Notes under the pieces: generated by a model | The model's database searches: none | The model's input: only the letters and a program-made list of their open reading frames with translations | What the model was told of the DNA's origin: nothing | Assembly: GCF_006345805.1 (NCBI RefSeq) | Contig: NC_043006.1 | Span: 92,628,001-92,692,000, forward strand | Source: Octopus sinensis | Lineage: Eukaryota | DNA: 64,000 bases | Direction of reading: 5' to 3' | Made by a program: the position numbers and the translations under genes | Shown here: piece after piece, positions 9,626-63,650 of the stretch | Layout of the letters: each line of letters starts with the position of its first letter | Position numbering within the stretch: the first letter of the stretch is position 1

Positions 9626-10355
9626 TGCATTTGCGAAATTTCACTTGCTTGGAATTTCTGATACGAATTTCTGACCTATTTCTTTCAAAGCGACGATACA
9701 TTCGGTCGTAATACCGGACCTTCGGCAAATTGTGGAAAAAAATGTATAATTCCTGTATGAATGTGTTCTCAAATTAGCCTCTTTCTCTCTGTCTGTTTCT
9801 CTCTCTCTCTCTCACTCGCGCGCGCTATATATATGTGTATGTGTGTGAGTTTACGTGTATGTGTGTCTGTGTGCGAGTGCATGTGTTGCGGATCCTTTGG
9901 AAAAATAATTTTCTTAACACATATAGTAGAGAAAATGTAAAGCAATTTCATCTCTTGGGGGACAAAACAAACAAGAAACCTATATATTTATCGTATTTCT
10001 GTATCTCTCTCACATGCTACAGATGATGGAAGAGGCAGCGAAAGCGGTGTTTTCTGGTTGATTGAAAAAATCAATTATCAAACTTTGAACACCTGTAACA
10101 TTTTTCGTAAATTTTTTTTCTGGAATAAATGAATAACAAATTAAGATTCACCGTCACAAATTACGTCTAAATGATACATTAAAACATTATTTTAAAGATT
10201 TCAACGTACAGGCAGAGAAGTAGCTGTATGGTAAGTAGCTTGCTTACCCGCGACATAGTTCCGGATTCAGTCCCACTGCGTGGCACCTTGGGCAAGTGTC
10301 TTCTACTATAGCCTCGGGCCAACCAAAGCCTTGTGAATGGATTTGGTGACGTCGC

Positions 10356-10385
<30 letters not shown>

Positions 10386-10387
<2 letters not shown>

Positions 10388-11142
10388 TCAAATTATTACA
10401 TTATATATATATATATATATATATTCAAATTATTACATTATATAAAAGGGCTTAGTAAAACAAAGCCTTTTACTAAGCCCTTTTATATAATGTAATAATT
10501 TGAATTCGCCTTAAATGGTCCCTTTGCATACTGAATACTTGGTGAAATTGATTATTAATTAATTTTACCCTCAATTGTTGAAATTATAATTCATCTCTCT
10601 CTATATAATGCCTCGGATTTTACCGAAAAAAGCATAGTGTTTACTGATTTTAACCCACGCTGGTGGAAAGGGGAGAGCAGAAATTCTTCGCTTGCATTTT
10701 TGAGTTTGTTGGCACTGTTAGTTTCGAGCAGATCTTCAGAAGCGATAAGAAGCCGAAAGGGTATGCTCCCACTTTCAGTGTTTTCAAATCCAAACCAGGG
10801 AGTTCTGAGCTGATGATAGAAATGTCGAGTTTGACTAATCTTGAAACGTACGTTCTCAAATAACCTTTGCATTTGATTTTTTAATGTCTCTGCCCCCATA
10901 CTTTCGTGAGTTGAATTGAGCAAACACTATATGAGAGAGGTTTTCTTTAAGTATTAGAAATAGTTTTAAAAAAGTTTTTTTAGCTGCTATTTCTAATGAG
11001 TTCAGTATGCGGCAAAGTAATTTATTTTACTAAGCCCTTTTATATAATGTAATAATTTGAATTCGCCTTAAATGGTCCCTTTGCATACTGAATACTTGGT
11101 GAAATTGATTAATTAATTAATTTTACCCTCAATTGTTGAAAT

Positions 11143-11146
<4 letters not shown>
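10386..11146 (+). mobile_element. Non-coding Penelope-like/retrozyme-like element with direct repeats and an inverted 5' end
   Basis: About 121-bp direct repeats at 10468-10588 and 11025-11146; a 38-bp inverted copy at 10423-10460; an internal hammerhead motif; TA tracts on both flanks. Confidence 0.8.
10806..10858 (+). ncRNA. Type I hammerhead ribozyme motif (intact core)
   Basis: TGAG-CTGATGA-[tAGAaatGTCGagttTGACtaaTCTt]-GAAA-CGTACG-TT-CTCA. Stem I is TGAG/CTCA and stem III is palindromic. Predicted cleavage is after GUU at 10854. The base of stem II is weak (U-U). Confidence 0.75.
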
Positions 11147-11198
<52 letters not shown>

Positions 11199-12284
11199 CG
11201 TGCATGTTTGTGTGTCTGTGTTTGTTCCCCCAACATCACTTGACAACCGATGCTGGTGTGTTTACGTCCCCATAACTTAGTGGTTCGGCAAAAGAAATCG
11301 ATAGAATAAGTACTAGGCTTACAAAGAATAAGTCCTGGGGTGGATTTGTTCAACGAAAGGCGCTGCTCCAGCATGGACTCAGTCAAATAACTGAAATTAG
11401 TAAAAGAATAAAAGTGTACACTGACTCAAACCACAAAGTACCTCCGCCTTCTTCGAGCCTGTGCATTTAAGATACACTTAGTTTCTGCTTCGTACGTAAT
11501 ATCAGTAGGTTCCTCTGTATCAATATTCATATTATACATATTGATAAAGTTTATCCAATGTGTCTCATTCATCTTCTCAGTTCTCGTATTGGTTGCTAAC
11601 TTGTGTAATACAATGTATAAATTCATTCATACAGAAACAAACCAACGCGAATACATATGTATATATCTATATATACATATTTATAAGAACAATGATATAT
11701 AACACTTTGCATGTGTATACGTGTCTATACATGACCATGTTGGAGGCGTCTGCTTAAATTTTATCTTTGTCACTTCACTTTTCAGTGAAGCAGCTGTTTG
11801 AGAATAAGCCATTCTCTATGAATAATGAATGATATGTCACATTCGATAATACATATAATGTAATTTTCACTTCCGCGCCCAGCGTTATACATTACTGATA
11901 CCATGCAGTATGTTTCGACTACGTCAAAGAAACGATTGTGAGAAATGGTGTGGATGACATCGTGTATAACATGAGAGAACCATTTATTTTATAGCAAGTG
12001 CAACAACTGTTTTAACAATTGTTTGTATCTTGCAACTTTCAGTAAGCTTGATAGATGATGATTGTAATCAAACGAAAATTAGTAAGTAAATGAAAGAATG
12101 AATACAATTGGTAACTTGTATATTTCTGTGTTGAATGCCATTTAAAGAAACTTTATAATTTTATAGCAAATATCTAGAAGATTAATGACTGTTTTTATTT
12201 TATTAACTCATCGAAAACCAACTATCATATTTATGACAATCCTGGCATAAATATTCTATCGGCGAAAGGGACCGATAGATTATG

Positions 12285-31968: not shown

Positions 31969-32145
31969 GCAGGAGTGGCTGTGTGGTAAGTAGCTTGCTT
32001 ACCAGCCACATGGCTCCGAGTCCAGTCCCACTGCTTGGCACCTTGGGCAAGTATCTTCTACTATAGCTTCGGGCCGACCAAAGCCTTGTGAGAGGATTTA
32101 GTAGACGGAAACTGAAAGAATCCCGCTGTCCATACACACGCATAC

Positions 32146-32208
<63 letters not shown>

Positions 32209-32410
32209 TGTGTGTCTGTGTTTGTCCACCCCACCATCGCTTGACAACTGATGTTAGTGTGTTTACGTCTCTGTGACTTAGCGGTTTGGCAAAAAACACC
32301 GATACAATAAGTACTAGGCTTACAAAGAATAAGCCCTGGGGTTGATATGTTCGACTAAAGGCGGTGCTCCAGCATGGCTGCAGTAAAATAACTGAAACTA
32401 ATAAAAGAAT
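31969..32410 (+). mobile_element. SINE family A, full length
   Basis: tRNA-like head, central (CA)n(TA)n, conserved tail and A-rich end. Confidence 0.93.
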
Positions 32411-60303: not shown

Positions 60304-61308
60304 AGGCGTAGGAGTGGCTGTGTGGTAAGTAGCTTGCTTACCAACCACATGGTTCCAGGTTCAGTTCCACTGCTTGGCAGGCACCTTGCACTAGTGTCTT
60401 CTACTATAACCTCGGGCCAACCAAAGCCTCGTGAATGGATTTGGGAGACGGAAACTGAATGAAGCCCGTCGTATATCCCGTCGTTCACCCGCGACGAGAC
60501 TTCTGCTGCTGTCTTTCTGGCCTGGCCCTCTCAAGGTAATGGACGGCAATTCTTTTTGCTCCGCTCGTCGTTCATAAAAAATTCCGCGTTCGCAATACTT
60601 TTTTCGTTCGGCGTTAACAGCCCTTCGTATCTTGTTTTTCCTTGTCCTGTCTTTTACTGTTTATAATTTGTACTGTCGTTACTGTCTTGTTTTTGTTACC
60701 ATTTTTTACACCTCTGCGAAAAGATCGCAGAATTTTAATTGATTTGCTTTTCGCAGGAAGGAAAGTTTCTTGTCGAAGATACGTCTCGCTTTTATCCTTC
60801 GAAACGTAGAGTAGATGAAACCATAGCGACTGAAGAAGGGGTTTTTTCTTTGTGTTAATTGTCCTGTACTCTATTTTTTTTGTTGTTTTAAAAAAATGTC
60901 CAGTTCCTTTGGTTTGTGTCTATGTCTTCGTTTCTGATTGTGTTCGACGTCCTTTTGGTGTCCTGTAATCATATATGCGTGTATATGTACATGTAGAGGT
61001 AGGTACGTACATATATGTTTATATATATGCATATGTTTTATTTTATTTATTAATATATATATATTTGTGTGTGTGTATGTTTGCGTGTTTGTGTTTGTCC
61101 TCACCCCCCCCCCAACATCACTTGGCAACCGATGCTGGTGCGTTTAAGTCCCCGTAACTAGCGGTTCGGCAAAAAGAGACCGATAGAATAAGTACCAGGC
61201 TTACAAAAAATAAGTCTTCGGGTCTATTTGCTCGACTAAAGGCGGTGCTCCAGCATGGCCACGGTCAAATGACTGAAACAACTAAAAGAGTAAAAGGGAG
61301 TAAAGAGT
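60304..61308 (+). mobile_element. SINE family A split by an insertion in its central microsatellite
   Basis: Head 60304-60476 and tail about 61060-61308 match 31969-32410. Confidence 0.92.
60477..60970 (+). mobile_element. Non-coding T-rich insertion, PLE-pLTR-like
   Basis: It interrupts the SINE at gtcgtatat, contains ccttc-GAAA-CG-TA and gaCTGAAGAagggg, and its T-rich tail runs into TA/TG repeats. Confidence 0.65.
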
Positions 61309-63136: not shown

Positions 63137-63340
63137 CTTTTATTCTTGTACTTGTTTCAATCATTTGACTGCGGCCATGCTGGAGCACCGCCTTTAGTCG
63201 AGCAAATTGACTCCAGGACTTATTCTTTGGTTTGTAAGCCTAGTACTTATTCTATCACACTCTTATGCCAAATCGCTAAGTTATGAAGGCGTAAGCATCG
63301 GTTGTCAAGTAATGTTGGGGGGGACAAACACACACACAAA

Positions 63341-63408
<68 letters not shown>

Positions 63409-63576
63409 CATATATACGGCGGGATTCTTTCAGTTTCCGTCTACCAAATCTACTCGCAAGGCTTTGATCAGCCAGAGGCTATAGCAGAAGACACTTCCCC
63501 AAGGTGCCACGCTGTGGGACGAACCCAGAACCATGTGGTTGGTAAGCAAGCTACTTATCACACAACCACTCCTGCG

Positions 63577-63579
<3 letters not shown>
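63137..63579 (-). mobile_element. SINE family A, full length
   Basis: The reverse complement matches 31969-32410. Confidence 0.93.

Positions 63580-63650
<71 letters not shown>

What the first reader, a model, noticed from the sequence alone, without database searches (positions are those of the whole stretch)
10386..11146. 557-nt-unit element with direct repeats, a fold-back 5' end and an intact-core hammerhead
Seen: the order is a short inverted piece (10386-10407), a 38-bp inverted arm (10423-10460), a repeat (10468-10588), a unique region with the hammerhead, and the repeat again (11025-11146). The repeats are almost identical, implying a young insertion, and there is no credible ORF. A second, decayed hammerhead-like motif lies on the opposite strand at about 10712-10743 (CTGAAGA..GCTC-GAAA-CTaacAG-TG). 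Established: partial tandem plus an inverted 5' segment is the integration signature of Penelope-like elements. Inference: reverse transcription of a roughly 557-nt circular or tandem RNA past one full turn; motifs on both strands would be viroid-like if real.
Basis: partly seen in the sequence, partly recalled or inferred. Interest (0 to 1): 0.72.

Follow-up and report, generated by a model that had tools for sequence, protein, structure and literature searches.

The report
Penelope-borne hammerhead retrozyme, long tail
This is one young copy of a 557-base non-coding repeat, present in thousands of units in this animal genome, that carries a predicted self-cutting RNA motif and is likely pasted into TA repeats by the enzyme of a Penelope-type jumping gene; it is a new member of a known kind, and the second, opposite-strand ribozyme that would have made it viroid-like is not real.

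Summary
The layout is as described. The 557-nt unit is a high-copy family: 5,844 exact matches of a 23-mer, in tandem arrays up to about 9 units inside (TA)n. 5' ends vary, but 3' ends sit at two fixed points about 95 nt apart. Inverted insertions pair one of each: 29 of 30 and 48 of 50 typed pairs in a second set. This is the Penelope-like (PLE) tail footprint, but 2-3 times longer than the printed 30-40 bp. The sense hammerhead is a type I, palindromic-stem-III motif kept in three related families; cleavage is untested. The antisense motif is not conserved (complete in 9 of 64 units), so the viroid-like reading fails. Verdict: a non-LTR retrozyme, i.e. a non-autonomous PLE. No coding partner was found in 80 GIY-YIG loci. 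A core-mutant subfamily is as mobile, and a pile-up of 5' ends at the cut site did not replicate. The scan's unchecked notes report the same kind on other DNA, including this genome.

The parts
10206..10350 (+). Left half of the host short interspersed repeat (SINE-like) into whose internal microsatellite the element inserted
   Evidence: matches 6 other places in the window at 75-87%; left and right halves lie about 100 bp apart in the copy at 31971-32410
10365..10438 (+). Exact 37-bp tandem duplication of the left junction ((TA)11 plus 15 nt of the arm); contains the 'short inverted piece' 10386-10407
   Evidence: (family D1, 100%)
10423..10460 (-). Short inverted arm, unit positions 1-38; its outer 3' end (10423) is of the short-end class (unit 22-39)
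   Evidence: L070
10461..10467 (+). 7-nt linker between the two arms' 5' ends; 10461-10469 is identical to 10324-10332 in the flanking repeat, possibly a templated repair insertion
   Evidence: other junctions show 0-9 nt overlap or short inserts
10468..11146 (+). Long arm, 1.22 turns of the unit; 3' end at the long-end site (unit 122)
10468..11024 (+). One full 557-nt unit (consensus 558 nt), non-coding
10806..10858 (+). Type I hammerhead motif: stem I 10806-09/10855-58, core 10810-16, stem II 10818-20/10839-41 and 10824-26/10833-35, GAAA 10843-46, palindromic stem III 10846-53, predicted cut after 10854; U-U at 10.1-11.1
   Evidence: sequence; conservation; 14 pairs 99.4% kept in 11 subfamily sequences
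10722..10739 (-). Antisense hammerhead-like letters; not conserved, treated as chance
10952..11146 (+). Structured terminal domain: hairpin, long-range helix enclosing the short-end site (about 11046-11063), second hairpin, then the long-end site (11146); likely the signal read by the helper reverse transcriptase
   Evidence: fold z -7.0; 4 of 31 pairs compensated across families A, B, C; 73% match in family D
11052..11146 (+). About 95-nt 'tail': present on the long arm only
   Evidence: 3' ends at unit 27 and 122 are the two modes
11143..11192 (+). Right (TA)n/(TG)n target tract
11206..11410 (+). Right half of the host short repeat

Best explanation
This is a young insertion of a non-coding, hammerhead-bearing 557-nt repeat family that has thousands of units in tandem and back-to-back arrays inside (TA)n, and it is likely copied in trans by the reverse transcriptase-endonuclease of a Penelope-like element. 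Shown: copy number, (TA)n targets, two fixed 3' ends about 95 nt apart, one of each per inverted insertion, variable 5' ends, a conserved structured terminal domain and a conserved sense hammerhead. Inferred: the helper (probably a Neptune-type protein, acting as a dimer) binds the terminal domain of a longer-than-unit RNA and nicks both strands of a (TA)n tract. Each DNA end primes at one of two internal AU-rich start sites, and each runs a variable distance, often over one turn. Host repair joins the two cDNA ends. Here one end ran 38 nt and the other 679 nt. The hammerhead would cut only as a dimer in tandem transcripts and is likely not needed for insertion.
For: Copy number and arrays. 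End rule: 29 of 30 inverted insertions in a position-ordered set of 43 loci (one pair is a duplicate); 48 of 50 typed pairs among 57 inverted junctions in 91 further loci, p=2e-12 against independent choice. Printed PLE signature (partial tandem, inverted 5'-truncated copy, one-sided tail, (TA)n bias): PMC8557442 passages. Two internal RT start sites, both strands cut, predicted dimer, HHR not needed in vitro: PMC11167929 parts 1-2. The genome holds RT + GIY-YIG elements with open frames of 775-883 aa that end in (TA)n with their own tails. Hammerhead: core changes fall at the free position 7 (three states) and loops; families B, C, D keep it on the same strand. 111 of 142 arms cross the cut site.
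Against: No coding element sharing the unit's sequence was found in 80 GIY-YIG loci (only 150 of 5,029 and 150 of 8,019 candidates were scored), nor upstream of copies of families B, C, D. The sampled coding families have shorter tails (about 25-60 nt, read by eye). The hammerhead lacks G10.1-C11.1, is missed by Rfam and is not the favoured monomer fold. A subfamily with U4 changed to C has at least 929 units against at least 618 for its intact sister. The excess of 5' ends at the cut site (9 vs 3.0) did not replicate (1 vs 2.8 in 144 arms).
Confidence: 0.86

Rival explanations
1. The unit is the pseudo-LTR of a coding Penelope-like element, and these are its truncated ends rather than an independent non-coding family.
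For: The architecture is identical to that of coding PLEs. The search for coding loci was partial.
Against: Arms read unit after unit for up to about 9 turns with no ORF between. No PLE protein match lies directly upstream of and in line with any unit in the loci tested.
Confidence: 0.08
2. The template is a ribozyme-cut, ligated monomer circle copied by rolling-circle reverse transcription (classic retrozyme model). This is a variant of the best explanation, not an alternative helper.
For: Animal retrozymes give circular RNAs (PMC7229834 passages). Most arrays have only singleton differences between units. In L035 three variants recur with a period of four units, which fits a circular tetramer or a later duplication.
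Against: L068 has four unit-specific variants shared in register by both arms; overall 6 of 10 cross-arm variants are in register against 3.0 expected, in 3 of 6 insertions. A core-mutant subfamily spreads as well and its arrays are no different in length (p=0.41).
Confidence: 0.3
3. A viroid-like or RNA-replicating circle with ribozymes on both strands was integrated here.
For: Core-like letters are present on the minus strand.
Against: The antisense core is complete in 9 of 64 units while mean column divergence is 0.14, broken in 21 of 86 close copies and lost in family C. It has no stem I and a G at the cut position. The predicted circular fold is branched, 63% paired.
Confidence: 0.02
4. 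It is an LTR-type mini-element (TRIM or plant-type LTR retrozyme) with 121-bp terminal repeats.
For: This locus alone has two 121-bp direct repeats.
Against: Across loci the 5' boundary is variable and the 'repeat' is just the overlap of a 1.22-turn copy; arrays and inversions are the rule. The hammerhead is type I and lies outside the repeats.
Confidence: 0.01

Closest known systems
Metazoan non-LTR retrozymes (Cervera and de la Pena 2020, PMC7229834, passages; Li, Clavereau and Pollet, bioRxiv 10.64898/2026.07.22.740005, parts 1-3 of 5)
   Same: Non-coding tandem units, low GC, one type I hammerhead per unit, dispersed monomers to multimers, proposed to be non-autonomous PLE derivatives. The length is inside the 51-972 bp range of the preprint.
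   Different: Longer than the 170-400 nt RNAs of the 2020 paper. Here the PLE insertion footprint (inverted arms, fixed two-site tail, (TA)n target) is read directly from the copies. No homologous coding pLTR was found. Circular RNA and cleavage are untested.
EN+ Penelope-like elements, Neptune-type insertion units (Craig et al. 2021, PMC8557442, passages)
   Same: Partial tandems, inverted 5'-truncated copy, tail on one end, microsatellite target, hammerhead upstream of the 3' end.
   Different: No ORF. The tail is about 95 nt (about 105 in family D) against the printed 30-40 bp.
Poseidon PAc from Anolis (Frangieh et al. 2024, PMC11167929, parts 1-2 of 4)
   Same: Two internal start sites defining a tail, both target strands primed, hammerhead dispensable for insertion.
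   Different: In vitro the two strands showed no difference in start site, whereas here the two ends of an insertion almost always use different sites. The start sites here are AU-rich and resemble the (TA)n target; PAc starts in an AC-rich stem-loop without target homology.
Minimal PLE hammerheads (Cervera and de la Pena 2014, PMC4209133, parts 1-2 of 4)
   Same: Type I, short stem I (4 bp), long irregular stem II, palindromic stem III implying a dimer.
   Different: G10.1-C11.1 is absent in this family (U-U, A-A or A-U by subfamily); it is present in related families B and D.

Membership tests
Non-LTR retrozyme | Tandem non-coding units, at least two consecutive | tested here: met
   arrays up to about 9 units; this locus has 1.22 units
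Non-LTR retrozyme | Type I hammerhead in each unit | tested here: met
   one subfamily carries U4C
Non-LTR retrozyme | Hammerhead MFE below -5 kcal/mol (preprint's filter) | tested here: inconclusive
   10800-10862 folds at -8.9 kcal/mol but into a different structure, z +0.4
Non-LTR retrozyme | No protein coding | tested here: met
Non-LTR retrozyme | Self-cleavage of the RNA | not testable with these tools
   the indirect genomic test did not replicate
Non-LTR retrozyme | Expressed as linear and circular monomer RNA | not testable with these tools
   only contigs of runs not on record as RNA
EN+ PLE insertion unit | 5' truncation, partial tandem, inverted 5' copy | tested here: met
EN+ PLE insertion unit | Tail at one end | tested here: met
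   present in 29 of 30 and 48 of 50; about 95 nt rather than 30-40
EN+ PLE insertion unit | Microsatellite or AT-rich target | tested here: met
   (TA)n at the fixed 3' ends in most of the 40 loci printed (read by eye; exceptions include L038)
Autonomous PLE | RT + GIY-YIG ORF in cis | tested here: not met
Derivative of a known coding PLE | Homology to a coding element's pLTR | tested here: inconclusive
   none in 80 GIY-YIG loci, a small part of the candidates
Viroid-like circular RNA | Conserved ribozymes in both polarities | tested here: not met
LTR retrozyme / TRIM | Fixed LTR boundaries, type III hammerhead in the LTR | tested here: not met
   the hammerhead is type I and outside the repeats
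LTR retrozyme / TRIM | PBS and PPT | not tested
   not searched

The most novel reading that the evidence does not exclude
An old clade of at least four non-coding hammerhead families (about 545-600-nt units) has kept a compensated RNA fold that holds two start sites about 95 nt apart. It recruits a Penelope-like dimer with which it shares no sequence, and each subunit is fixed to one start site on the same multimeric RNA. The genome would then record an asymmetric two-enzyme priming step that the in vitro work did not see.
Probability: 0.35. Interest if true: 0.6.

Novelty: new member of a known kind. Interest (0 to 1): 0.36.

Why it matters
It adds footprint-level evidence that animal retrozymes are moved by Penelope-like enzymes, a link so far argued mainly from co-occurrence and pLTR homology (bioRxiv 10.64898/2026.07.22.740005). 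It also offers a clean substrate for the open question of how PLE tandem/inverted insertions form: a 200-nt structured RNA with two well-separated start sites, thousands of young insertions, and a natural ribozyme-mutant subfamily. The kind itself is known and the viroid-like claim does not hold, so interest is moderate.

Tried and rejected
1) Antisense hammerhead: rejected. 2) 5' ends piling up just after the cut site as a sign of in vivo cleavage: 9 vs 3.0 expected in 142 arms, p=0.004, but a hairpin window was stronger, 12 vs 3.4. In 144 new arms it was 1 vs 2.8. A wider window chosen afterwards gave 5 vs 1.9 for the window's subfamily only (p=0.04). Not supported. 3) 'Dead ribozyme gives longer arrays': U4C subfamily 2.22 vs intact sister 1.96 hammerheads per arm, p=0.41, from the first 100 listed matches of each. 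It differs from the window's subfamily (1.53, p=0.017), but that is not the sister control. Rejected. 4) Coding partner: not found in 80 GIY-YIG loci; hits there were separate insertions in neighbouring (TA)n. Families B, C, D led only to more non-coding units. 5) Expression: no RNA holder listed; 19 runs, 14 flagged RNA by guess, all contigs. Laying 8 of them showed the unit and its ends but cannot show strand, ends or level, and gave no usable empty-site allele. 6) Rfam: only hairpin-driven miRNA matches below threshold. 7) A DNA search with 10855-10960 returned only 3 places because common words are skipped. 8) One search used a misregistered structure and is disregarded; one search replaces it. 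9) Literature: searches found no description of this family. Repeat libraries (Repbase, Dfam) could not be searched, and the preprint's supplements were not seen, so the family may already be catalogued. 10) Look-up of the unit by sequence in the scan's notes found nothing.

Full report
Observation. The coordinates are right. Reading left to right: (TA)11, a 22-bp inverted stub, (TA)n, a perfect 38-bp inverted arm (10423-10460), a 7-nt linker, then 679 nt that are 1.22 turns of a 557-nt unit, then (TA)n(TG)n. The stub is part of an exact 37-bp duplication of the left junction. The whole insertion sits in the internal microsatellite of a common short repeat whose two halves are about 100 bp apart in another copy in the window. 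The host is a 2.7-Gb animal genome; my guess that it is an octopus is recalled and comes from no call.

Family. A search of the own genome gave 1,219 candidates; the 40 scored hold full units at 97-100% identity. A 23-mer near the 3' end has 5,844 exact matches, reversed control 0. Hammerhead-specific 20-mers give at least 1,442 units for the window's subfamily, 618 for one sister and 929 for another. Among 86 full units the mean distance to consensus is 5.1 substitutions; the window copy has 1 substitution and 1 indel. Three related non-coding families exist: C (567 nt, 79% identical), B (about 575 nt) and D (600 nt).

Insertion footprint. 5' ends are scattered, while 3' ends have two modes, unit position about 27 (22-39) and 122, nearly always running into (TA)n. 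In a position-ordered set of 43 loci, 30 are inverted two-arm insertions and 29 pair one short with one long end; one of these duplicates another. In 91 further loci chosen by hammerhead patterns, 57 inverted junctions were found. Seven had a cut or untypable end; 48 of the other 50 pair short with long, and 2 pair long with long. Single-arm insertions use either end (21 short, 16 long). Arm-to-arm junctions show 0-9 nt overlap or short inserts, as expected from host end joining (established knowledge). The window copy follows the rule: short end 38, long end 122. Craig et al. (PMC8557442, passages) describe this layout and a 30-40 bp one-sided tail for PLEs. Frangieh et al. (PMC11167929, parts 1-2) show that the tail is the distance between two internal RT start sites. 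Here it is about 95 nt.

Cis signal. The 200 nt around the two ends fold far better than shuffles (z -7.0). Both ends lie in unpaired AU-rich stretches just 3' of hairpins. Across 16 sequences of families A, B and C, 4 of 31 consensus pairs are compensated, and this region is what family D shares most. I infer that it is the element bound by the helper enzyme.

Hammerhead. The sense motif is type I with a 4-bp stem I and a palindromic stem III, the dimer-type architecture described for PLE hammerheads (PMC4209133, parts 1-2). In 64 units of the position-ordered set, 8 core positions are invariant, one differs once, the free position 7 has three states, and U4 is C in 24 units of one subfamily. 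Fourteen stem pairs are kept in 99.4% of cells over 11 sequences, with one compensated pair; 11 of 500 shuffles reach this, which is weak for related sequences. Families B and D have their own hammerheads with G10.1-C11.1 on the same strand. Against: this family has U-U at 10.1-11.1 and a GUU triplet, Rfam misses it, and the monomer does not fold into it preferentially. That U4C inactivates the core is recalled knowledge, not tested. That subfamily is at least as abundant as its intact sister and its arrays are not longer. An apparent excess of 5' ends just after the cut site failed to replicate, and 111 of 142 arms read through the site. So the ribozyme looks selected over long times but dispensable for insertion, as in the in vitro work.

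Antisense motif. It is complete in 9 of 64 units, broken in 21 of 86 close copies and lost in family C. It has G at the cut position and no stem I, and core-only matches are common by chance. The viroid-like reading is rejected.

Template. Of 23 insertions with both arms over 750 nt, most show only singleton differences between units. In a wider set, 10 variants in 6 insertions are shared across arms, 6 of them in register from the 3' ends against 3.0 expected; four come from L068. L068 suggests both arms copied one mixed multimeric RNA. L035 has three variants repeating every four units. This is one clear case and not a rule; circle versus linear multimer stays open.

Helper. The genome holds several RT + GIY-YIG families with a CxxxxCxxC linker (Neptune-type by the description in PMC8557442), some with open frames of 775-883 aa, which end in (TA)n and have their own hammerhead-like motifs and tails. 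None of 80 loci shares sequence with the unit. The sample is small against thousands of candidates, so the helper is unidentified.

Comparison and verdict. It works like an EN+ PLE insertion without the ORF, and it meets the testable features of a non-LTR retrozyme (PMC7229834 passages; bioRxiv 10.64898/2026.07.22.740005 parts 1-3; its supplements were not seen). Searches found no paper on this family, but repeat libraries could not be checked. The scan's own unchecked notes describe similar two-armed retrozymes in this and other genomes; I saw them after my own end analysis. New member of a known kind, interest 0.36. The long tail, the one-of-each end rule and the natural core mutant are the useful parts.

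Noticed in passing
L212, L219, L223, L230, L234, L237, L247, L248, L373-L399: A subfamily of about 545 nt with U4 changed to C in every hammerhead core has at least 929 units, more than its intact sister.
   Followed up: yes
L283:900-1500 (family D); L107, L116, L122 (family B); L159 (family C): Three older related non-coding families share the terminal fold and long tail, each with a different type I hammerhead.
   Followed up: partly
window about 10656-10675 and family D unit 247-266: A 20-nt stretch downstream of the long end is 95% identical between families A and D and similar in C, although the surroundings have diverged; possibly a promoter element.
   Followed up: no
L077, L078, L087, L093, L099 3' ends; L133-L138: Coding Neptune-type families carry hammerhead-like motifs with the U3-A8 core variant.
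   Followed up: no
L249-L261: Another coding PLE family has a tail of about 60 nt, so tail length varies among families in this genome.
   Followed up: no
L035:1884-7047: Three variants recur with a period of four units in a 9-unit arm: a circular tetramer template or a later duplication.
   Followed up: partly
L086, L093, L064, L254, L255, L278: These non-coding elements sit in the (TA)n tracts next to coding PLE copies; in L086 one arm starts exactly at the predicted cut site.
   Followed up: partly
unit positions 472-494: 5' truncation points cluster at the base of the strong terminal hairpin, 12 vs 3.4 expected in the best 12-nt window, chosen after scanning.
   Followed up: no
window 10206-10350 and 11206-11410; also 31971-32410, 60304-61292, 63141-63582: A common two-part short repeat with an internal microsatellite serves as the landing site.
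   Followed up: no
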